Source: an uncultured Clostridia bacterium
GTDB taxonomy: Bacteria > Bacillota > Clostridia > TANB77 > CAG-465
Direction: 5' to 3'
Length of the DNA: 64,000 nucleotides
Assembly: GCA_944388585.1 (NCBI GenBank)
Contig: CALXJI010000007.1
Coordinates: 7,276-71,275, forward strand
Positions 2,567-64,000 of the stretch are shown here, one piece after another. The notes beneath the pieces were generated by a model. That model saw only the letters and a list, made by a program, of their open reading frames with translations, was not told where the DNA came from and made no database searches. Both the position numbers and the translations under genes were made by a program. Numbering within the stretch: the stretch's first letter is position 1; each line of letters begins with the position of its first letter.

Positions 2567-5475
2567 AAGTTTATGAATTAGCGAAAGAATTAGGATTATC
2601 AAATACAGAAATGCTAGAAAAAATTAAAAGTATGGGAATAGATGTTAAATCACATTTATCAACACTTGACGAAAAAGATATAGAAAAAATAAGGGGAAAT
2701 AAAAAGAAAAATAATAAAGAAGAGAAAAAGGCAGAGCAAATACATATTATTAGAAGAAATGTCAGAGTAATTAATACTAATGAAGAAGGAAAAGAAATTA
2801 ATGAAATAACAACAAATATAGCAGGAGATATTAAGAAGATTCATAAAGAAACAGGAAATGCTAATAATAGAAATAATCGTGATAATAAAAACGATACACA
2901 GCCTAGAAGCAATTATTATGATAGAAAAAGTAGATTTGCAGGAAATCGAATTAAAAATATTGTTATAACAAGAAATGGAAAGCCAGTTGAGAAAAAAGTC
3001 GAAGATAAAAAAGAAGAAGCAAAAGTAGAAAAAGAAAGTGTAAAAAATATGGAAGAAAAAGTTATCGTTAATAATAAAGTTGATACAAATAAAGCAGAAA
3101 ATAATGTTACTGAAAATAAGAATAATATTAAGAATGTAATCAGTAATAATTCAAGTATTAATACAGCTAACAACGTAAAAGAAGAATTTAATAATAAGAA
3201 TGCAAAAAATAATAAGGAAAATTATAAAAAGAGTAATTATAATTCCCAAACATCTAACCCAAATTATAATAAGAATTCTAACAATAAAGATTATGGAAAA
3301 AGAAATAATTTTAATAAGCGTGATCAACAAAATGGTGATAGACCTCAAAGAAATAATTTTAGAAAAGATCAAAAAAGAACTGGAGATAATACTTCATATC
3401 AGGTTAATAAATTTATAAAACAAGCTGAAAAAGCTCCAATAGAACAAAAAGAAACAAGAGAGTATAGTTCTGCTAATATTGATAAAGACAAAAAGAAGTA
3501 TATAGAGAAAAATACAGCTAATCTTGAGAATAGAAAAGAAAAAATAGATAAAAATAAGTTAAGAGAAGAGCATTCTAGAGTAGCTACCTCAAGATTGAGA
3601 GGAATGGAAATAAGCTCAGAAGGACTTATGGATTTATATGAAAGAGAAAGTGATTTATCTAGAAAATCATATGGTAAAAAGAAAAATAAGACTCAAAAAA
3701 CAGAAATGAAGCAAACCAAGATAATACCAATGACTGAAGTTAAGTTACCTGAAACTATGACTGTAAAGGAATTTGCAGAAGCTATAAAAAAACAAGTATC
3801 TGAAGTAATCAAAAAATTATTTTCAATGGGAATAATGGCAACTGTAAATCAAGATATAGATTTTGATACAGCATATTTAATAGCATCAGAGTTTGGTATA
3901 ACAGCAGAAAAAGAAGTTGTCGTTACAGAAGAGGATATTCTTTTTGATGATAGTGAAGATAAAGAAGAAGATTTAGTACCAAGACCTCCAATAGTTGTTG
4001 TTATGGGACACGTAGATCATGGTAAAACTTCACTTTTAGATAGACTTAGAAAGACAAATGTTGTTGAGGGAGAAGCAGGTGGTATAACACAACATATAGG
4101 TGCTTATAAAGTAAAGGTAAAAGATAGAGAAGTGTGTTTCTTAGATACGCCAGGACATGAAGCATTTACAGCAATGAGAGCAAGAGGAGCACAAATTACA
4201 GATATAGCTATAATTATTGTGGCCGCAGATGATGGAATTAAACCTCAAACAATAGAAGCTATAGATCACGCTAAGGCTGCAGGAGTATCAATTCTTGTTG
4301 CTATAAATAAAATAGATAAGCCAGGAGCAAATGTTGAAAGAGTAAAACAAGAGTTATTAGAAGTTGGATTAGTTCCAGAAGAATGGGGTGGAGATACAAT
4401 ATGTGTACCTATTTCTGCAAGAACTGGTGAAGGTATCGATACGTTACTTGAAATGTTACTATTAATAGCAGATATGAAAGATTTAAAAGCTAATCCAAAT
4501 AAGCAAGCTAAAGGTACTGTAATTGAAGCGAGATTAGATCAAAAAAGAGGAACAGTTGTTTCTATGCTTGTTCAAAGGGGCCAATTGAATGTGGGAGATA
4601 CAATTGTTGTAGGAGATATGGTATCTAAAATTCGTGCTATGAAAGACGATAAAGGAAGATCAGTAAAAAGCGCAGGACCATCTACACCAGTTGAAATACT
4701 TGGATTATCTCATGTACCTGAAACAGGTGAAGTTTTCTATGAGGTAGAAAATGAAAAAGTTGCTAAACAATTAATTGAAAAAAGAATAGCAAAACATAGA
4801 ATGGAGCTTATAAAGCAAGGAAGTAAAATTACATTAGATGATCTTTTCGGTCAAATTAAAGAAGGAAAGATTAAAGAGCTAAATATCATTATAAAAGCAG
4901 ATGTTCAAGGATCAGTTGAAGCTTTAAAAGATTCACTTTTAAAACTATCAAATGATGAAGTTAGAGTAAGAATAATACACGCTTCTACAGGTGGAATTAA
5001 AGAGTCAGATGTTACACTTGCTTCTGTATCAAATGCTATAATAATTGGATTTAATGTAAGACCGGAAAGTGCTGCTGAAGCACAAGCTAAAAAAGAAAAA
5101 GTAGATATGAGACTTTATAGCGTTATATATGATGCAATAAATGATGTGGAAACAGCACTAAAAGGTCTGATGCCTAAAAAATATAAAGAAGTATTATATG
5201 GTAGAGCAGAAGTTAGAAAAATCTTTAAAATTACAGGTGTTGGAACTGTTGCAGGATGCTATGTAAAATCTGGAAAAATAGTAAGGGGAGCAATGGTTAG
5301 ACTTGTTAGAGATTCTATAGTGTTACTTGAGATTAAAATTGATTCTTTAAAAAGAGAAAAAGACGATGTAAAAGAAGTTGCAGAAGGATATGAGTGTGGA
5401 ATAAAACTTGAAAATTATAGTGATATTAAAGAAGGCGATATATTCGAATGCTTTGTTATGGAAGAAGAAAAGTAG
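2554..5475 (+). CDS. infB: translation initiation factor IF-2, with a long N/K-rich low-complexity N-terminal region
   Basis: TTG start with a GGGGGA RBS; G-domain motifs [17 protein letters not shown] and NKID; C-terminal beta-barrels; 973 aa. Confidence 0.95.
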
Positions 5476-8662: not shown

Positions 8663-11600
8663 ATGAAAACCAAGAAAAAGATTTTTTTATTAATTTTGAT
8701 TTTTTTATTTATATTAGCTCCTAAAAATATTATAGCACTTACTTCAGGAGCTTATATGTATGATAGAATATATGTTGGTGTACCAGAACATGATGAGGAA
8801 TTTGGATATCCCGCATTTTTTTGTTGTACATTAGATGGTGAAGAAGTATATTGTATTGAAATGGGAGTTAGCTTACATAAAGCTGAATACGCTGAATATG
8901 ATTATGATGATCCAAGCATAGGCTATGCATTAGTAGCTGATCATGGATATACAGATAATGATGCAGCAAATTATCAAATTAGGCAGGCAGTTATTTGGGC
9001 TTTGCTTGGTCAAATTGATATTGAAGGAATATATGCAGGTGATTCTGGGTGTGTTAGAGCTGCTAAAAAGTTGTATTATGATGCAAAAGAATATAAGGGG
9101 ACAGTTGAAAAGCCAAAAGTCTCAACAAGTTCTATAGAATTTGAAATAGATGGAAGTGAGTATGTATCAAATGCAATATCAGTTAGTAAATCAGAAGGAA
9201 ATGAATATTATGATATTAATTTAGGTGGATTCCCAGATGGAACCTATATTACAGATATGGATGGAGACAAAATGCAAACGGATGATATAACTTGGAATAG
9301 TGAATTCCAAATTAGGATTCCTCTTGAAGTTATAAAATATGATATAACAAATATAAACATGAAAGTAACAAGTACAGGAACTGTATATAATACCACTAAA
9401 GCATATCATGCACCAAAAGATGAAGCTTCACAAGAAGTACTATCTTCAAAGGCTGAATCTTCTAAAAAAACTAGTTCTGTATCATTTAAATTAGTTAAGC
9501 CAATAAAAGCGCAAGGAAGTTTAGAAGTTAAAAAATTAGATGAATATGGTAAAACAATAGCAGGAACTGTATTTAAAATAACTAATGGAACTGAAACTTT
9601 TACACAAAGTACAGGATCTGATGGTATTGCAAGATTTATAGATTTACCAGTTGGTAAGTATACTATAACTGAAACTAGTGCAACAGATGGTTATTTTAAT
9701 GATAAAGTAGATATAACAGCAAATGTAATAGCAGGACTTACAGTAAATGTAGAAAAAACGAACAAGGAAAGTAATGGAAATGTTAAAATTATAAAAAGAG
9801 ATGCTGAAACTGGAGAAATACCTCAAGGTGATGCAAAATTATCTGGAGCAGTATACAAAGTATATGCAAATGAGGATATATATGCAGCAAATAAAATAAA
9901 TAAATTATTTTCTAAAGGTGATGAGGTAGGAACATGTACTACTGGTGAAGATGGAACTACAAATTCTATACAATTACCTTTGGGAAAATATAAATATAGA
10001 GAAGTTTCAGCTTCTGAAGGATATATTTTAAATGATGAAGAAATTGAATTTACAATTGAATATGATAATCAATATGTTGAGCTCGTAGATAAGACTTTTA
10101 CTAGTAAAGAAAATGTTAAAAGAAATAGTATAGAAATTATAAAAAAATTACAAGCAACAGATTCGACTCCACAGCAAAATCTTGCTGGTGCAAAGTTTTC
10201 AGCAACTTTAAAAAGTGATAGAAGTAAAGTATACTATTCAACTGTAACAGACAATAATGGATATTGTATAATTGAAAATTTACCTTATGGAACATATGAA
10301 ATCGAAGAAGTTGAAGTACCTGTAAATGCTTTAAAAATAGAAAATTTTGATGTTTTTATAGAAGAAGATTCATCAGAAAGAGAACCATATAGATATACTA
10401 AAGAAGATGTAGCTAAAAAAATGCAAATAACAATATATAAAGAAGATAGAGAAACTGGAACAGAAACTCAAGGTGATGCAAGACTTGAAGAAGCAGAATA
10501 TACTATATATAGAGATGAGGCATTAACAGATGCTATTGAAACTGTAAAAATAAGTAAACAAGATGATGGAACATATAGTGCAAAAACTGGATATTATTTA
10601 ATAGGAAAATATTATATAAAGGAGACTAAAAGGCCTGAAGGATATTTAGCAGACGAAGAAATTCATATTATAGAACAATTAGGAGAAAATCAAACAGAGG
10701 AAATATCTTATCATGAAATTACATCTACAGAACCTGTAGAAAGGGGAAATATATATATAGTAAAATATCAAGAAAATAATACAAATGAAGGAGAAGGATC
10801 AACTACTAAACCACCTGCAACAGGAGTTGAACTTACATTGACATTAAATTCAGATCCTTCAGTTTCATATAAATCAGTAGTAAATGATATTGGATATGCA
10901 GAATTTATAGATATACCTTATGGATGGTATACGATAACTGAAACAAAAAGCTTAGAATTTGTAGACATCATGGATCCACAAGCAGTATATGTATCATATG
11001 AAGGTCAAACTCTACATTATATTGTAGAAGACCCAAGATATGAAAGAAAATTAAAAATAGTAAAAAAAGATTCTGAGACAGAAAATACAATACCGCTTGC
11101 TGGCGCAACTTTTAAAGTATGGGATGTAGCTACAAAGCAATATATTAGTCAAGTAGTAAACTATCCTACACAAACACAAATTGACGAATTTATAACATCA
11201 AATGATGGAACACTGACTTTACCAGAAGGATTAATACCTGGAGAGTATGAATTAGAAGAAGTATCAGCACCTTATGGATATGTTTTAAATACATCTAGAG
11301 TGCCGTTTACAATTGATGCGACAACTCCAGAAGAACCAGAATATATAGAACTTACAACAGTAGAATTTCCAGATACTCCTCAAAAAGCAAGGATCATAGT
11401 ATATAAAAAAGGTGAAGTTGTTACATCTTCTAAGAAAGAAGATGATATGATAAGACCTGTATATGAAGAAATGGGATTACAAGGTGTAGAATATACAATA
11501 AAAGCAGTAGAAAATATAACAACACCAGATGGATCTGTTAGAATGTATGAAGGAGATACAATCACTTTTGTAACAGATAAGGATGGAATAGGAAAATCAC

Positions 11601-47830: not shown

Positions 47831-47907
<77 letters not shown>

Positions 47908-59424: not shown

Positions 59425-59501
59425 GGTGGATATAGTTCAGTTGGTAGAGCGCCAGTTTGTGGCACTGGATGTCGTGGGTTCAAGTCCCACTATTCACCCC
59501 A
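59425..59501 (+). tRNA. tRNA-His (anticodon GTG) with genome-encoded G-1
   Basis: Hand fold: G-1 plus acceptor GTGGATA/TATTCAC, D-arm GTTC-AGTTGGTA-GAGC, anticodon loop TTGTGGC, T-loop TTCAAGT, discriminator C, CCA. Confidence 0.85.
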
Positions 59502-59513
59502 GTACTTATATAT

Positions 59514-59588
59514 TGGGCTGTCGCCAAGCGGTAAGGCACTAGACTTTGACTCTAGCATGCGCTGGTTCGAATCCAGCCAGCCCAGCCA
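59514..59588 (+). tRNA. tRNA-Gln (anticodon TTG)
   Basis: Hand fold: acceptor TGGGCTG/CAGCCCA, 3-bp D-stem GCC/GGC, anticodon loop CTTTGAC, T-loop TTCGAAT, CCA. Confidence 0.85.
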
Positions 59589-60458: not shown

Positions 60459-61106
60459 ATGAAAGTATTAGTAACAGGAACATCAAGTGGAATAGGTAAA
60501 GCTATAGCTATTAAATTTTTATCTGAGGGGCATAATGTAGTAGGAATAGATATAAAAGATTCAACAATAAATAGTAAATTATATTCACATATAAAAAAAG
60601 ATATATGTTCTAAAGATTTACCAGAAATATTAAATGTAGATATATTAATAAATAATGCAGGAGTTCAAAATACTCAAAATGATATAGATGTTAATTTAAA
60701 AGGGACTATTAATATTACAGAAAAGTATGGAATACAGCCTAATATAAAATCTATTGTATTTATAGCTTCTGCAAGTGCTTCTACTGGAGCGGAATTTCCA
60801 GAGTATGCTGCAAGTAAAGGAGGAATAGTTACTTATATGAAAAATGTAGCTTTAAGAGTAGCTAAATATAATGCTACATCTAATAGTATATCTGCAGGAG
60901 GTGTTATAACACCTTTAAATGATCATATAATTAATGACCCAAAATTATGGCAAGAGGTTTTAAATGAAACTTTACTTAACAAATGGGCAAGTGCAGAAGA
61001 AATAGCGAATTTTACTTATTTTATTTCAGTAAATAATAAGAGTATGACAGGGCAAGATTTATTAATAGATAATGGAGAAGCATTAAAATCTAATTTTATT
61101 TGGTAA
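60459..61106 (+). CDS. SDR family oxidoreductase
   Basis: TGTSSGIGKAIA motif, NNAG, and an S...YxxxK triad (YAASK). Confidence 0.85.
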   Translation: MKVLVTGTSSGIGKAIAIKFLSEGHNVVGIDIKDSTINSKLYSHIKKDICSKDLPEILNVDILINNAGVQNTQNDIDVNLKGTINITEKYGIQPNIKSIVFIASASASTGAEFPEYAASKGGIVTYMKNVALRVAKYNATSNSISAGGVITPLNDHIINDPKLWQEVLNETLLNKWASAEEIANFTYFISVNNKSMTGQDLLIDNGEALKSNFIW

Positions 61107-61182
61107 AATAAAGATAATTATGTTAAATCATTTTTATGTGTTTTTAATAAAATTAAATATAAATTTATATGTATAAAATTTA

Positions 61183-61211
61183 TTGACTTGAAAAAAATAA
61201 TATGCTAAAAT
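61183..61211 (+). promoter_or_regulatory. sigma-A type promoter for the small RNA upstream of cas9
   Basis: TTGACT at 61183-61188, a 17-nt spacer, then TAAAAT at 61206-61211. Confidence 0.45.
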
Positions 61212-61217
61212 ATAAGT

Positions 61218-61344
61218 GTACTGTAAAGGTACAAATTATATCATAAATAAGATTAGTAGGTTAGTATAATAAGACTAATTTACGTCGTAAAGCACTGACT
61301 ATATAAGTAGTCATCTAGGACTAGCAATGCTAGTCCATTTTTTT
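61218..61344 (+). ncRNA. candidate tracrRNA (about 125 nt: promoter to hairpins to intrinsic terminator) directly upstream of cas9 on the same strand
   Basis: Hairpin TGACTA-TATAAG-TAGTCA at 61296-61313. Terminator GGACTAGC-AAT-GCTAGTCC with a 7-T run at 61318-61344. Two ATAAG motifs. The GCTAGTCC element resembles the SpCas9 tracrRNA nexus. Confidence 0.4.
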
Positions 61345-61439
61345 ATTTTTATATAAGTTTACATAAAACTAAACATTTTTATTGACTTTTGATTAAAAAA
61401 TATAGTAAAATTGCTATATAATTTCTAGGAGGATAAAAT

Positions 61440-64000
61440 ATGGATTATAAAATAGGGTTAGATTTAGGAATAAGTTCAGTAGGATGGGCAGTTATCCAAA
61501 CAGATTGTGATGGAAATCCAGTAAAAATTGAAAATCTTGGATCAAGAATTTTTGATAAAGCTGAAAATCCTAAAGATGGATCTTCTTTAGCTTTAAAAAG
61601 GCGAGAAGCAAGAGGAGTAAGGAGAAGATTAAGAAGGAGAAGACATAGAAGAGACAGAGTTTTATCTCTTCTTGAAGAATATAATATTATTTCAAAAAAA
61701 GAAGTACAAGCAATGTTTAGTAATAGTGAATATAGATTTGAAAAAAATGTATATGAACTTAGAGTTGAAGGGCTTGATACATTATTGACTGCTAAAGAAT
61801 TAGCAAGAGTTTTAATAAATTTTGTAAAAAGAAGAGGATATAAATCTAATAGTATTTCCGAGGAAAAATCAGATAAGGATATAGGTAAATTATTAACTGC
61901 TACTGTTGAAAATGATAAAATTATGAAAGAGAATGATTACAAAACAGTAGCTCAAATGTATTTAAATGATGAAAGATTTACTACAAATAAAAATTTTAAT
62001 GATGGAAGAAAAATTTTAAAAATAAGAAATACAACAGATAGTTATACTTCTACAGTAAGAAGAAGTGATCTTGTAAATGAAATAAAGTTAATATTACAAA
62101 AGCAAAAAGAGCTAAATTCTAAAATAACAGATAAATTTATAGAAAAATATTTAAATATATTTGAATCTCAAAGAAGTTTCGAAGAAGGACCTGGTGGAGA
62201 TAGCCCATATGGTGGAAATCAAATAGAAAAAATGATCGGAAGATGTACATTAGAACCTAGAGAGCCACGAGCAGTAAAAGCATCATATACTTTTGAATAT
62301 TTTAAATTATTACAAGACATTAATCATATCAAACTCGAATGTAAAGAAAATATTGACGGAAAAGTAAAAAATATATCTAAGTCGCTTTCAAATGAACAAA
62401 GAAAAGAACTGATAAATCTTGCTAAAAAAAGTGATACAATATCTTTTGATAAAATAAGAAAAGTGTTAAATTTAGATTATAATGTTACTTTTAATATGGT
62501 AAATTATAACTTGAAAAAAGTTTCAAATATAGAAGATTTATTTAGCTTATCAGAAAAAGAGACTAAACTTAGGGAGTTTCAAAGTTATCATAAAATAAGA
62601 AAAATATTAGATAAAATAGAAAAAGGTATAGTAGATAAACTTTCTATAGATACTTTAAATAAATTAGCATATGCATTGTCCGTATTTAAAAATGATAAAA
62701 GTATAAAAAAATATTTAAAAGAAAACTGTAGAGAGTTAACAGATGAACTTATAGAAAATTTATTGGAGATTAGTTTTTCAAAAGTAGGAAACTTATCTAT
62801 TAAAGCTATGGAAAAGTTAATACCATTTTTAGAACAGGGTCTAACTTATGACAAAGCTGTTGAAAAAGTGTATGGAAAAGATGTAAATATAAATGTAAAG
62901 AGAAAGAATAAACTTTCATTTAATACTATTAAAGATGATATAACAAATCCAGTAGTAAAAAGAGCTGTATCTCAAACAATAAAAGTTGTAAATGCAATTG
63001 TAAACAAATATGGTGAACCTTTATGCATAAATATTGAGCTTGCAAGGGAACTTTCTAAAACATTTGAAGAGAGAAATAGAATAAGTAAAAAAAATGAAGA
63101 GAGAAAATCAGAAAATGAGAAAGCAAAACTAGAAATTCAAGAGATGGGAAAATTCAATGTCACAGGACAAGATATTATAAAATATAGACTTTGGAAAGAA
63201 CAAGATGAAATATGTATATATTCTGGACATAAAATAACACCAGATGAATTATTTACAGAGCTTGTAGATATTGATCATATAATTCCATACAGTATTTCTT
63301 TTGATGATACGTTTAATAATAAAGTATTGGTTTTATCTTCTGAAAATAGAAAAAAAGGCAATAGAGTTCCAATTGAATATTTAAGAAAAAATGGAATGCA
63401 TGTTGATGAATACAAATTAAGAATAGAGACTACATATATAAAGAAAAACAATTATAAAAAGTTAAAAAAATTGTTGGTTGAAGGAATAACAAGAGAAGAT
63501 ATAGATAATTTTAAAGAAAGAAATATAAAAGATACTCAGTATTTAAGTAGGCTTATGTATAATTTGCTTAGAAATAATTTAAAGTTTAAGAAAAATGATG
63601 GTATAAAAATAAAAGTACAAGCTGTAAACGGAGCAATAACATCTCATATTAGAAAAAGGCTTGGTATAGAAAAAATAAGAGCTAATGGAGATAAACATCA
63701 TGCAATAGATGCAGTTATAATAGCTATAATAACTCCTAAATTAATTCAAAGTATAACTAATTTTTATAAGTATAACGAATTAAAAAATTGTAATATTAAG
63801 GAAAATAAAATAATAAATGAAGAAACAGGAGAATATGTAGATTTAAGTAAATTTCCTCAACCTTATCAAGGATTTAGAGAAGAGCTTGAAATTAGAAGCT
63901 TACAAAATGAAAATTTAATGCATGAAGCTTTAAAAAATTCTAAATTAGTAAGATATACAGATATTGAAAATGTAAAACCGATTTTTGTTTCAAGAATGCC
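61440..64000 (+). CDS. cas9: Cas9 (type II CRISPR endonuclease), 5' portion; the ORF runs off the window end
   Basis: AGGAGG RBS. MDYKIGLDLGISSVGWAV is the RuvC-I motif with the catalytic Asp. RREARGVRRRLRRRRHRR is the Arg-rich bridge helix. HNH motifs DIDHIIPYS and NKVL..ENRKKGNRVP are present, as is the RuvC-III motif HHAIDAVIIA. More than 850 aa with no stop before 64000. Confidence 0.9.
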   Translation, partial: MDYKIGLDLGISSVGWAVIQTDCDGNPVKIENLGSRIFDKAENPKDGSSLALKRREARGVRRRLRRRRHRRDRVLSLLEEYNIISKKEVQAMFSNSEYRFEKNVYELRVEGLDTLLTAKELARVLINFVKRRGYKSNSISEEKSDKDIGKLLTATVENDKIMKENDYKTVAQMYLNDERFTTNKNFNDGRKILKIRNTTDSYTSTVRRSDLVNEIKLILQKQKELNSKITDKFIEKYLNIFESQRSFEEGPGGDSPYGGNQIEKMIGRCTLEPREPRAVKASYTFEYFKLLQDINHIKLECKENIDGKVKNISKSLSNEQRKELINLAKKSDTISFDKIRKVLNLDYNVTFNMVNYNLKKVSNIEDLFSLSEKETKLREFQSYHKIRKILDKIEKGIVDKLSIDTLNKLAYALSVFKNDKSIKKYLKENCRELTDELIENLLEISFSKVGNLSIKAMEKLIPFLEQGLTYDKAVEKVYGKDVNINVKRKNKLSFNTIKDDITNPVVKRAVSQTIKVVNAIVNKYGEPLCINIELARELSKTFEERNRISKKNEERKSENEKAKLEIQEMGKFNVTGQDIIKYRLWKEQDEICIYSGHKITPDELFTELVDIDHIIPYSISFDDTFNNKVLVLSSENRKKGNRVPIEYLRKNGMHVDEYKLRIETTYIKKNNYKKLKKLLVEGITREDIDNFKERNIKDTQYLSRLMYNLLRNNLKFKKNDGIKIKVQAVNGAITSHIRKRLGIEKIRANGDKHHAIDAVIIAIITPKLIQSITNFYKYNELKNCNIKENKIINEETGEYVDLSKFPQPYQGFREELEIRSLQNENLMHEALKNSKLVRYTDIENVKPIFVSRM

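What the first reader, a model, noticed from the sequence alone, without database searches (positions are those of the whole stretch)
61183..61344. Promoter-to-terminator small RNA unit directly upstream of cas9, a candidate tracrRNA
A roughly 125-nt unit on the cas9 strand contains, in order:
- A TTGACT-17-TAAAAT promoter.
- A 5' GTAC...GTAC hairpin.
- Two ATAAG motifs.
- A 6-bp hairpin (TGACTA/TAGTCA).
- An 8-bp GC-containing terminator hairpin, GGACTAGC-AAT-GCTAGTCC, with 7 Ts.

The GCTAGTCC element is reminiscent of the SpCas9 tracrRNA nexus (GGCUAGUCCG). Position and architecture fit a tracrRNA. The 5' portion (about 61218-61250) would be the anti-repeat and predicts the sequence of the unseen CRISPR repeat. 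The unit could alternatively be a cas9 leader or attenuator.
Basis: partly seen in the sequence, partly recalled or inferred. Interest (0 to 1): 0.7.

Follow-up and report, generated by a model that had tools for sequence, protein, structure and literature searches.

The report
tracrRNA gene upstream of type II-C cas9
The small promoter-to-terminator unit just upstream of cas9 is the tracrRNA of an uncharacterised type II-C CRISPR-Cas9 system from an uncultured gut Bacilli bacterium; it is built like the known GeoCas9 tracrRNA, so it is a useful annotation but not a new kind of element.

Summary
It has a TTGACT-17-TAAAAT promoter with a TG extension, a 5' hairpin, a 7-bp hairpin, and an 8-bp terminator followed by T7.

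The CRISPR array lies outside the window. I recovered it from other contigs that encode the identical Cas9. It sits after cas2 and has 36-nt repeats and 30-nt spacers.

Window 61235-61270 is the anti-repeat:
- It pairs with 34 of the 36 repeat nucleotides (-34.9 kcal/mol; shuffled repeats average -10.9).
- It is the unique best site in the whole window and in a complete locus.
- Pairing requires the tracrRNA on the cas9 strand and the crRNA on the opposite strand.
- Every transition difference from the repeat gives a G:U pair in that orientation only.

In eight further Cas9 lineages (46-77% identity to this Cas9) whose arrays were recovered, the anti-repeat changes together with that locus's own repeat. 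The second hairpin shows compensatory changes, and the promoter is conserved.

The architecture matches GeoCas9. Both have the tracrRNA upstream of cas9, an array transcribed in the opposite direction, and the same 8-bp stem with a UC/UU internal loop.

The anti-repeat starts at 61235, not 61218. The "nexus-like" GCTAGTCC is only the terminator and is not conserved.

Verdict: a new member of a known kind.

The parts
61183..61211 (+). tracrRNA promoter: -35 TTGACT (61183-61188), 17-nt spacer, extended -10 TGcTAAAAT (61203-61211). The predicted transcription start is about 61217-61219.
   Evidence: One search gives 10 of 12 matches with a TG extension. A TTGAC(A/T)-17-TAnnAT promoter sits at the same distance before the hairpin in L016, L020, L022, L024, L026, L028, L030 and L032; in L034 only a -10-like TGGTACTAT is recognisable (read directly).
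61217..61233 (+). 5' leader hairpin (UGUACU-GUAAA-GGUACA), upstream of the anti-repeat.
   Evidence: A hairpin occurs at this position in the leaders of the window and of eight related lineages (not L034), with different stem sequences.
61235..61270 (+). Anti-repeat: ATTATATCATAAATAAGATTAGTAGGTTAGTATAAT. It pairs with the crRNA repeat GUUAUACUUCUCUAUUAAUUUUAUUUAUGAUAUAAU, which is transcribed from the opposite strand of the array.
   Evidence: One search finds a single site in the window, with 6 of 36 differences from the repeat read on the same strand. One search gives -34.9 kcal/mol with 34 of 36 nt paired. One search shows it is the unique best site. One search covers the wobble pattern and covariation with the repeat in 9 lineages.
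61273..61286 (+). Nexus-equivalent stem-loop: GAC-UAAUUUAC-GUC. It follows the AAG that comes directly after the anti-repeat.
   Evidence: Searches show three pairs invariant in 9 of 9 lineages, so there is no covariation for or against. The GeoCas9 sgRNA has AAGG at the same place.
61296..61313 (+). Hairpin 2: UGACUAU-AUAA-GUAGUCA. It is flanked by the conserved sequences AAAGCNCU and UCU.
   Evidence: 5 of 7 pairs show changes on both sides, 96.8% of cells in this helix are paired, 0 of 500 shuffles reach the covariation score of the tested structure, and slid controls collapse.
61318..61344 (+). Rho-independent terminator: GGACUAGC-AAU-GCUAGUCC, then A and U7.
   Evidence: Seven of the nine close lineages have a GC-rich hairpin plus a U-tract here, each with an unrelated stem sequence.
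61382..61439 (+). Separate cas9 promoter-like sites (TTGACT-18-TAAAAT at 61382-61411 and TTAAAA-18-TATAAT at 61393-61422) and the ribosome-binding site AGGAGG (61428-61433).
61440..64000 (+). cas9, the first 853 of 1128 codons. This is the effector that the tracrRNA serves.
   Evidence: TIGR01865, E 1e-206; the full gene followed by cas1 and cas2 in L001; the closest solved structures are all type II-C.

Best explanation
Window 61183-61344 is an independent gene for the trans-activating CRISPR RNA (tracrRNA) of a type II-C CRISPR-Cas9 system.

A sigma-70-type promoter with an extended -10 starts a primary transcript of about 126 nt near 61217. An intrinsic terminator ends it at the U-tract, 61338-61344.

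Nucleotides 61235-61270 form the anti-repeat. They anneal to each 36-nt repeat of the crRNAs. The array lies downstream of cas2 and outside the window, and its crRNAs are transcribed towards cas2 from the opposite strand. Each repeat ends in TGaTATAAT, an extended -10 box, so transcription probably starts from a promoter inside every repeat.

The duplex has an 8-bp lower stem, a 2x2 internal loop (crRNA UC opposite tracrRNA UU) and a 26-bp upper stem.

The 3' tail is AAG, a GAC...GUC stem-loop, hairpin 2 and the terminator hairpin. It is the scaffold that Cas9 binds.

By analogy with GeoCas9 and NmeCas9, RNase III probably cuts within the upper stem. That would remove the 5' leader hairpin and leave a mature tracrRNA of roughly 85-95 nt.

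Shown by computation: the complementarity, its uniqueness, the orientation, covariation with the repeat, covariation in hairpin 2, conservation of position and strand, and the gene content of the locus.

Inferred only: expression, processing, Cas9 binding and the repeat-internal promoters.
For: 1. The array exists. Contigs encoding the identical 1128-aa Cas9 carry, about 100 nt after cas2, 3 to 13 copies of one 36-nt repeat at a 66-nt period, separated by different spacers.

2. The pairing is strong. RNAduplex gives -34.9 kcal/mol with 34 of 36 nt paired. Five hundred shuffled repeats average -10.9 (sd 2.9), with a best value of -24.4.

3. The site is unique. In a scan of both strands of the whole window and of locus L009, it ranks first and the next unrelated site scores -22.9. 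A mismatch search finds only this one site in the window.

4. The orientation is settled. The reverse orientation gives only -23.5. In nine lineages, 2 to 6 differences per anti-repeat are tracrRNA G for A or T for C, which give G:U pairs only if the tracrRNA is on the + strand. None goes the other way. The promoter and terminator are on the + strand.

5. The anti-repeat covaries with the repeat. In L022, L024, L026, L028, L030, L032 and L034, changes in the repeat are mirrored in that locus's anti-repeat. The UU/UC mismatch at positions 27-28 is invariant.

6. The scaffold is conserved. Hairpin 2 has 5 of 7 pairs with compensatory changes, and 0 of 500 shuffles reach its covariation score.

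7. There is one copy per locus. A covariance model gives exactly one strong hit (82-141 bits) per locus, always just upstream of cas9 on the cas9 strand. The only other hits are the CRISPR repeats themselves, at 20-34 bits.

8. The locus is type II-C. It has cas9-cas1-cas2 and then the array, with no csn2 or cas4. The closest solved Cas9s are AtCas9, GeoCas9-length chains and NmeCas9-length chains.

9. The closest characterised system has the same layout. In GeoCas9 the tracrRNA lies upstream of cas9 and the array is transcribed opposite to the cas genes (PMC5681539). Its sgRNA has the same 8-bp stem, the same UC/UU loop and AAG after the anti-repeat.

10. Spacer polarity fits. The spacers far from cas2 are shared between strains and those near cas2 differ. 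That matches the type II-C rule that new spacers enter at the last transcribed repeat (PMC12080349).
Against: There is no expression data, so the transcript ends and the processing are predictions.

No Rfam family matches the unit, even at E up to 10.

The array itself is not in the window. It is taken from other assemblies of the same organism. Their Cas9 is 100% identical, and the tracrRNA unit gives the same covariance-model score in L001, L004, L006, L008 and L009.

No protospacer was found, so the PAM, and with it a PAM-side check of crRNA orientation, is missing.

The GAC...GUC stem is invariant, so it carries no covariation evidence.
Confidence: 0.92

Rival explanations
1. The unit is a cis-acting 5' leader or attenuator of cas9. 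Transcription from the 61183 promoter would read into cas9, and the 61318-61344 terminator would gate how much does so.
For: The unit lies 95 nt upstream of cas9 on the same strand. In two related lineages (L030 and L032) the homologous RNA has no terminator and ends 10-20 nt before the cas9 ribosome-binding site, so in those loci it must be co-transcribed with cas9. The tracrRNA promoter and the cas9 promoter-like site at 61382 share the sequence TTATTGACTT.
Against: In the window the terminator is strong, with 8 bp, 5 GC pairs and U7, and promoter-like sites precede cas9. Attenuation explains neither the 36-nt complementarity to the repeat nor its covariation with the repeat across lineages. 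No alternative antiterminator fold was seen. Some read-through could occur alongside the tracrRNA function, but it cannot replace it.
Confidence: 0.05
2. The tracrRNA is transcribed from the - strand and the array from the + strand, in the same direction as the cas genes.
For: Complementarity between two DNA segments is symmetric. The reverse pairing still gives -23.5 kcal/mol, and a few - strand promoter-like hexamers fall inside the unit.
Against: Across nine lineages, every transition difference gives a G:U pair in the + orientation and an A-C or C-A mismatch in the - orientation. The reverse pairing loses 11 kcal/mol. No - strand terminator was found in the region scanned. The conserved promoter, the covarying hairpin 2 and the U-tract terminator are all 3' of the anti-repeat only on the + strand. 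The repeat ends in TGnTATAAT only when read on the - strand.
Confidence: 0.02
3. The element is a silent, degenerate solitary repeat left over from an old array. It is not a functional RNA gene.
For: At the DNA level it is a diverged same-strand copy of the repeat, with 6 of 36 differences. In related loci a partial second repeat fragment lies directly before it, as would be expected of an array remnant.
Against: A decaying relic would not keep a promoter and a terminator. It would not restrict its substitutions to wobble-compatible ones. It would not track changes in the repeat, or show compensatory changes in a downstream hairpin, across Cas9 lineages of 46-77% identity.
Confidence: 0.01

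Closest known systems
GeoCas9 tracrRNA (Geobacillus stearothermophilus, type II-C; Harrington et al. 2017, PMC5681539)
   Same: The tracrRNA is encoded upstream of the cas9 ORF, and the array is transcribed opposite to the cas genes. The guide duplex has the same design: an 8-bp lower stem, a 2x2 internal loop with crRNA UC opposite tracrRNA UU, then an upper stem. AAG follows the anti-repeat directly, and a ...AAGC(A)..CUGAC motif follows further on. PDB chains of GeoCas9 length are among the best Cas9 matches, at E about 1e-212.
   Different: The primary sequence is very AT-rich and diverged. The 3' tail is shorter, about 75 nt after the anti-repeat, whereas GeoCas9 needs 91 nt or more. It has two simple hairpins instead of the long GC-rich 3' structure. 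A 5' leader hairpin precedes the anti-repeat. The host is an uncultured gut Bacilli MAG rather than a thermophile.
AtCas9 (Alicyclobacillus tengchongensis, type II-C), PDB 21dz/9wac
   Same: It is the closest solved Cas9 by sequence: E 1.9e-236 over residues 1-1119. The entry was identified as AtCas9 through bioRxiv 10.64898/2026.01.30.702744.
   Different: Only the proteins were compared. I did not retrieve or compare its guide RNA.
Neisseria meningitidis and Campylobacter jejuni type II-C tracrRNA/crRNA systems
   Same: The operon is cas9-cas1-cas2. The array is transcribed opposite to the cas operon (PMC3737331). Each repeat is said to carry its own promoter, and spacers enter at the last transcribed repeat (PMC12080349). 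Here the repeat ends in TGaTATAAT, and the spacers nearest cas2 are the variable ones.
   Different: I did not verify where the tracrRNA gene lies in those species. PMC3737331 lists four typical positions, of which upstream of cas9 is one. NmeCas9-length chains are a more distant match, at E about 4e-170.
Streptococcus pyogenes tracrRNA (type II-A)
   Same: The logic is the same: an anti-repeat, then AAG, then a nexus stem-loop, then hairpins and a terminator.
   Different: The Cas9 is only distantly related, at E about 1e-20 over part of the protein. No Rfam family matches this unit. The GCUAGUCC string that recalled the Sp nexus lies here in the terminator and is not conserved in related lineages.

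Membership tests
tracrRNA (trans-activating CRISPR RNA of type II systems) | Contains an anti-repeat able to base-pair with the repeats of the associated CRISPR array | tested here: met
   34 of 36 nt pair, at -34.9 kcal/mol against -10.9 (sd 2.9) for shuffled repeats. It is the unique best site in the window and in the full locus.
tracrRNA (trans-activating CRISPR RNA of type II systems) | Encoded in an intergenic region within or next to a cas9 locus | tested here: met
   It lies 95 nt upstream of cas9, between an SDR-family gene and cas9, with no ORF of 20 aa or more in between. cas1, cas2 and the array follow in L001 and L006-L015.
tracrRNA (trans-activating CRISPR RNA of type II systems) | Own promoter and Rho-independent terminator flanking the anti-repeat (a supportive criterion in Chylinski et al. 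2013) | tested here: met
   An extended -10 promoter at 61183-61211 and a terminator at 61318-61344. The promoter is conserved in eight related loci and the terminator in seven of the nine close lineages, not in L030 or L032. These are in-silico predictions only.
tracrRNA (trans-activating CRISPR RNA of type II systems) | The anti-repeat co-evolves with the cognate repeat across orthologous loci | tested here: met
   Repeat changes are mirrored in the anti-repeat in seven lineages with diverged repeats. All transition differences are G:U-compatible in one orientation.
tracrRNA (trans-activating CRISPR RNA of type II systems) | Structured 3' tail (nexus plus hairpins) that binds Cas9 | tested here: inconclusive
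   Hairpin 2 is supported by compensatory changes in 5 of 7 pairs. The nexus-like GAC...GUC stem is invariant, so it is uninformative. Cas9 binding cannot be tested here.
tracrRNA (trans-activating CRISPR RNA of type II systems) | Expressed, co-processed with pre-crRNA by RNase III, and required for Cas9 interference | not testable with these tools
   This needs RNA-seq or a northern blot, plus cleavage or interference assays.
tracrRNA (trans-activating CRISPR RNA of type II systems) | Match to a curated Rfam covariance model | tested here: not met
   No Rfam 15 family matches 61000-61500, either at gathering score or at E up to 10. The only hits are chance matches to FourU and psRNA6. tracrRNAs are highly diverse in sequence (PMC3737331), so this does not weigh against the function.
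Type II-C CRISPR-Cas | cas9-cas1-cas2 operon without csn2 or cas4 | tested here: met
   The gene tables of L006-L015 show Cas9, Cas1 and Cas2, then the array. The definition is taken from PMC3737331.
Type II-C CRISPR-Cas | Cas9 groups with type II-C orthologues | tested here: met
   The best PDB matches are AtCas9, chains of GeoCas9 length and chains of NmeCas9 length, at E 1e-236 to 1e-170. The next tier, which includes the chains labelled Streptococcus thermophilus Cas9 1, reaches only about 1e-70.
Type II-C CRISPR-Cas | Array transcribed opposite to the cas operon, from promoters inside the repeats | tested here: inconclusive
   Orientation is inferred from the wobble pattern. A TGnTATAA(T/C) box sits at the repeat's 3' end in all lineages. 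A hairpin plus U-tract follows the last repeat on the - strand. Transcription itself was not observed.
Type II-C CRISPR-Cas | New spacers enter at the transcriptionally last repeat | tested here: met
   L008 and L009 share the four spacers furthest from cas2 (s06-s09) and differ at the end nearest cas2. The rule is quoted from PMC12080349.

The most novel reading that the evidence does not exclude
In relatives of this locus, the tracrRNA 5' leader hairpin displays a 7-11-nt exact copy of the anti-repeat segment that spans the internal loop. This copy is complementary to crRNA repeat nucleotides 7-15.

The copy changes together with the repeat across lineages, from AGAGAAG to ATGGAAC to AGGGAAT, while the stem sequence changes by compensation.

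This could be a functional second contact with the crRNA, for example a kissing loop that starts crRNA:tracrRNA annealing or bridges neighbouring repeats. The alternative is that it is only a relic of a repeat-repeat junction.

The window's own copy has lost the match: its longest shared stretch with the repeat is 4 nt. If there is a function, it is dispensable in this organism.
Probability: 0.15. Interest if true: 0.5.

Novelty: new member of a known kind. Interest (0 to 1): 0.25.

Why it matters
The result completes the guide-RNA parts list for an uncharacterised 1128-aa type II-C Cas9 from an uncultured gut Bacilli lineage. The list now has the repeat, crRNA orientation, anti-repeat and scaffold, so an sgRNA can be designed directly and the enzyme tested.

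It also shows that the GeoCas9-type guide design is kept in very AT-rich mesophilic relatives. That design is an 8-bp stem, a UC/UU internal loop and AAG after the anti-repeat.

It does not change how tracrRNAs are understood.

Tried and rejected
1. Rfam, at gathering score over the whole window and at E up to 10 over 61000-61500, gave only tRNAs and chance hits.

2. There is no CRISPR array in the window, so the array had to come from elsewhere.

3. Looking up the upstream SDR protein, with either start codon, found no contigs. The route that worked went from L001 to the Cas9 homologue search and then to the contigs encoding the identical Cas9.

4. A protospacer and PAM search found nothing, so the PAM and a PAM-side orientation check are missing. 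I ran 29 spacers against the GenBank phage collection and three spacer cores against IMG/VR.

5. The repeat and the Cas9 family are absent from IMG/VR.

6. My first guess for the nexus, a UUUAC-GUC-GUAAA mini-hairpin, was dropped. L016, L020 and L022 have GAAGA or GAAAA there and break it. The invariant GAC...GUC closure is what RNAalifold returns.

8. The RNAalifold pairing of AUUAUAU with AUAUAAU inside the anti-repeat is set aside, because both arms pair with the crRNA in the duplex.

9. No paper in the library contains this repeat, and none describes a second anti-repeat in a Cas9 tracrRNA leader.

10. The consensus terminator scan missed the hairpin between cas2 and the array. Folding recovered it.

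Full report
OBSERVATION

The region was read directly.
- The -35 box TTGACT is at 61183-61188. A 17-nt spacer follows, then the -10 box TAAAAT at 61206-61211, preceded by TG.
- A 5' hairpin pairs 61217-61222 with 61228-61233.
- A second hairpin, TGACTAT/GTAGTCA, is at 61296-61313.
- The stem GGACTAGC-AAT-GCTAGTCC is at 61318-61336, followed by A and seven T.

The 130-nt RNA folds well beyond shuffled controls, with a z-score of -4.19 and 0 of 200 shuffles folding as well.

cas9 starts at 61440 and runs off the window end. No ORF of 20 aa or more lies between the upstream SDR-family gene and cas9.

Promoter-like hexamers on their own are not above chance in this AT-rich DNA, with 35 found and 30 expected. 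The case for the promoter therefore rests on its conservation, described below.

FINDING THE ARRAY

The window holds no CRISPR array, so I looked for the same locus in other assemblies.

A scan of reference genomes returned L001, a 6.7-kb contig of an uncultured Bacilli MAG whose Cas9 is 100% identical over the 853 residues in the window. L001 shows the complete cas9 (1128 aa), then cas1 and cas2. The contig ends exactly after a 36-nt sequence that resembles window 61235-61270 on the same strand.

Three metagenome contigs also begin or end exactly at the borders of that 36-mer. This is how assemblies break at a repeat.

The homologue search returned the identical Cas9 as P0001. Contigs encoding it include full arrays.
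- L008 has 8 copies and L009 has 13 copies of ATTATATCATAAATAAAATTAATAGAGAAGTATAAC, read on the cas9 strand.
- The period is 66 nt, with different 30-nt spacers.
- The arrays start about 100 nt after cas2.

THE ANTI-REPEAT AND ITS ORIENTATION

Window 61235-61270 (ATTATATCATAAATAAGATTAGTAGGTTAGTATAAT) differs from the repeat, read on the same strand, at 6 of 36 positions. It is the only such site in the window.

Same-strand similarity means that an RNA made from the cas9 strand is complementary to crRNA made from the opposite strand. On that strand the repeat reads GTTATACTTCTCTATTAATTTTATTTATGATATAAT.

- RNAduplex gives -34.9 kcal/mol with 34 of 36 nt paired: an 8-bp stem, a 2x2 internal loop and a 26-bp stem.
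- The opposite orientation gives -23.5.
- Shuffled repeats average -10.9 (sd 2.9), with a best value of -24.4.
- A sliding scan of both strands of the whole window and of locus L009 puts this site first. The next unrelated site scores -22.9.

The unit passes it.

COMPARATIVE EVIDENCE

I fetched loci for Cas9 relatives of 46-77% identity. Wherever the contig reached an array, I read its repeat.

All nine fetched lineages carry the homologous unit directly upstream of cas9, on the cas9 strand. Eight of them show a TTGAC(A/T)-17-TAnnAT promoter at a fixed distance from a 5' hairpin. L034 shows only a -10-like box and no clean hairpin.

The repeats differ between lineages, and each anti-repeat follows its own repeat.
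- In L022, position 7 is C instead of T in both.
- In L024, L026 and L028, positions 17-22 change together.
- In L030 and L032, AAT becomes TCA and G becomes C or T in both.
- L034 is diverged throughout, and its anti-repeat still matches.

Across the nine lineages with a known repeat, 2 to 6 differences per anti-repeat are tracrRNA G for A or T for C. These give G:U pairs only if the tracrRNA is on the cas9 strand. None is of the type that would suit the opposite orientation. The two-nucleotide mismatch at anti-repeat positions 27-28 is invariant.

An alignment of nine lineages (A1) gives an RNAalifold consensus with two elements.
- An invariant GAC...GUC closure sits right after the anti-repeat.
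- Hairpin 2 has 5 of 7 pairs changed on both sides. For the tested structure, 97.8% of cells are paired, 0 of 500 shuffles reach the covariation score, and all slid controls collapse.

A covariance model built from A1 finds exactly one strong match per locus (82-141 bits), always at this position and on this strand. The only weaker matches (20-34 bits) are the CRISPR repeats themselves.

The terminator stem has a different sequence in every lineage.

WHAT KIND OF SYSTEM THIS IS

The locus is cas9-cas1-cas2-array, with no csn2 or cas4. That is the type II-C gene set (PMC3737331).

The nearest solved Cas9 structures are all type II-C.
- AtCas9, entries 21dz and 9wac, identified through the preprint found: E 1.9e-236.
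- Chains of GeoCas9 length: E about 1e-212.
- Chains of NmeCas9 length: E about 1e-170.
- The next tier, which includes the chains labelled Streptococcus thermophilus Cas9 1, reaches only about 1e-70.

Read on the crRNA strand, the repeat ends in TGATATAAT. The equivalent box is TGGTATAAT or TGATATAAT in seven relatives and TGGTATAAC in L034. This is an extended -10 box at the place where type II-C repeats are reported to carry their own promoters (PMC12080349).

On that strand, a 14-bp hairpin with a U-tract follows the repeat nearest cas2. It would stop transcripts before they run antisense into cas2.

Between strains, the four spacers furthest from cas2 are shared and those nearest cas2 differ. 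That is the type II-C rule of acquisition at the last transcribed repeat.

The closest characterised system, GeoCas9, has the same layout. Its tracrRNA lies upstream of the cas9 ORF, its array is transcribed opposite to the cas genes, and its crRNAs carry 23 nt of spacer plus 18 nt of repeat (PMC5681539).

The GeoCas9 sgRNA (sequence from PMC12514136) has the same 8-bp lower stem, the same internal loop of crRNA UC opposite tracrRNA UU, and AAG directly after the anti-repeat. An sgRNA designed from the window sequence folds into the same 5' architecture.

MECHANISM

Steps shown here by computation:
- complementarity to the repeat;
- uniqueness of the site;
- orientation;
- covariation of the anti-repeat with the repeat;
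- covariation in hairpin 2;
- conserved position and strand;
- gene content of the locus.

Steps inferred only:
- A primary transcript of about 126 nt runs from about 61217 to the U-tract.
- It anneals to each repeat of crRNAs that start inside the spacers.
- RNase III cuts in the upper stem, removing the leader hairpin and the distal half of the duplex.
- Cas9 binds the lower stem, the internal loop, the GAC...GUC stem-loop and the two 3' hairpins.

RIVAL EXPLANATIONS

- A pure cas9 leader or attenuator explains none of the repeat complementarity. In this locus it is also unnecessary, because of the strong terminator and the promoter-like sites before cas9. Two relatives, L030 and L032, lack the terminator and must co-transcribe the tracrRNA with cas9. 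Some read-through here therefore cannot be excluded.
- A tracrRNA on the - strand is excluded by the wobble pattern and by the placement of the promoter, scaffold and terminator.
- A silent array relic is excluded by the conservation and covariation.

NOVELTY

This is a new member of a known kind. No paper in the searchable library contains this repeat, and no Rfam model matches the unit. Its design is nevertheless that of GeoCas9-type type II-C tracrRNAs.

The one feature I could not match to the literature is seen in relatives. The loop of the 5' leader hairpin holds a 7-11-nt exact copy of the anti-repeat segment around the internal loop, and it changes with the repeat across lineages. In the window's own copy that match is lost, with a longest common stretch of 4 nt. 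It is therefore a side observation here, not a property of this locus.

LIMITS

- There is no expression data.
- The array comes from other assemblies of the same organism.
- No protospacers were found, so the PAM is unknown.

Noticed in passing
L016:5778-5803, L020:5764-5789, L022:5785-5808, L024:5761-5787, L026:5765-5793, L028:5747-5775, L030:5871-5903, L032:5854-5877; window 61217-61233 for comparison: In relatives, the tracrRNA 5' leader hairpin carries in its loop (and, in some, its 3' arm) a 7-11-nt exact copy of the anti-repeat segment that spans the internal loop. The sequence is ATAGAGAAG(TA), ATATGGAAC or AGGGAAT, each matching that locus's own repeat. The stems differ by compensation. 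The window's copy has lost the match (longest shared stretch 4 nt). It could be a relic of a repeat-repeat junction or a second contact with the crRNA.
   Followed up: partly
L030:5871-6003 and L032:5854-6003: In these two lineages (Cas9 54-55% identical) the tracrRNA has no terminator hairpin or U-tract. It ends 10-20 nt before the cas9 ribosome-binding site, so the tracrRNA must be the 5' part of the cas9 transcript there. L032 also has an extra hairpin inserted in the nexus loop.
   Followed up: no
window 61357-61366 (GTTTACATAA): The motif (A/T)(A/G)GTT(T/G)ACATAA is conserved 10-25 nt after the tracrRNA terminator in seven lineages (window, L016, L020, L022, L024, L026, L028). In the window it does not line up as the -35 box of a cas9 promoter; spacing in the other loci was only partly checked. 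It may be an operator. Its function is unknown.
   Followed up: no
window 61180-61189 and 61379-61388: The tracrRNA promoter and the cas9 promoter-like site share the 10-mer TTATTGACTT around the -35 box, which suggests a duplicated or co-regulated promoter.
   Followed up: no
L008:7186-8680 and L009:7506-9000 (also L003:37-1525): A 1495-bp segment sits exactly between two repeats at the end of the array far from cas2, in the place of a spacer. It encodes small - strand genes (DpnD/PcfM-like, DUF3848, DUF1287) of the kind found on mobile elements. After it come one more repeat, one spacer and a degenerate terminal repeat.
   Followed up: partly
L008: about 8747-8781; L005:10053-10088: The repeat furthest from cas2, which is the first one transcribed, is degenerate with about 4-7 differences. 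Several fall in the part that pairs with the tracrRNA lower stem. This fits the 'mutated extra repeat' way of suppressing an extraneous crRNA described for type II-C systems in PMC12080349.
   Followed up: partly
L008:6790-6819 and L010 first spacer (s04), versus L009:7044-7073 (s15): Spacer s04 (GCAAGTACAATTTTTAATATCGCAAGAATT) is the exact 30-nt reverse complement of spacer s15 in another strain. The same protospacer, with identical borders, was stored in both orientations.
   Followed up: no
L009:6611-6650 (between cas2 and the first repeat): A 14-bp hairpin, AAAAAAGCTTGAAA/TTTCAAGCTTTTTT, is flanked by an A-run on one side and T-runs on the other. It looks like a two-way terminator that ends the cas operon on one strand and transcripts leaving the last repeat on the other. 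The consensus terminator scan missed it, apparently because of its 9-nt loop.
   Followed up: partly
L034:246-340 and 3692-4260: In the 46%-identical lineage, cas1 is absent and only a stretch that appears (by eye, not translated) to be a cas2 3' remnant precedes the array. The tracrRNA leader holds a tandem, wobble-bearing partial copy of the 5' half of the anti-repeat (TTATATCACTACGAGAGAATGCAG) ahead of the full anti-repeat.
   Followed up: no
L006:14898-15032 and L011:6999-7133: A 44-aa 'Omega_Repress' gene is called on the - strand across the CRISPR repeats. It is most likely a gene-calling artefact.
   Followed up: no
window 59426-59585 and 47831-47904: Three tRNA genes are present. Two of them lie in tandem between the Methyltransf_4-family (PF02390) gene and the Vut_1-family (PF02592) gene, about 1.6 kb upstream of the tracrRNA unit. 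In L016 (Cas9 77% identical) the Vut_1 and SDR genes are missing and the CRISPR locus follows the Methyltransf_4 gene directly.
   Followed up: no
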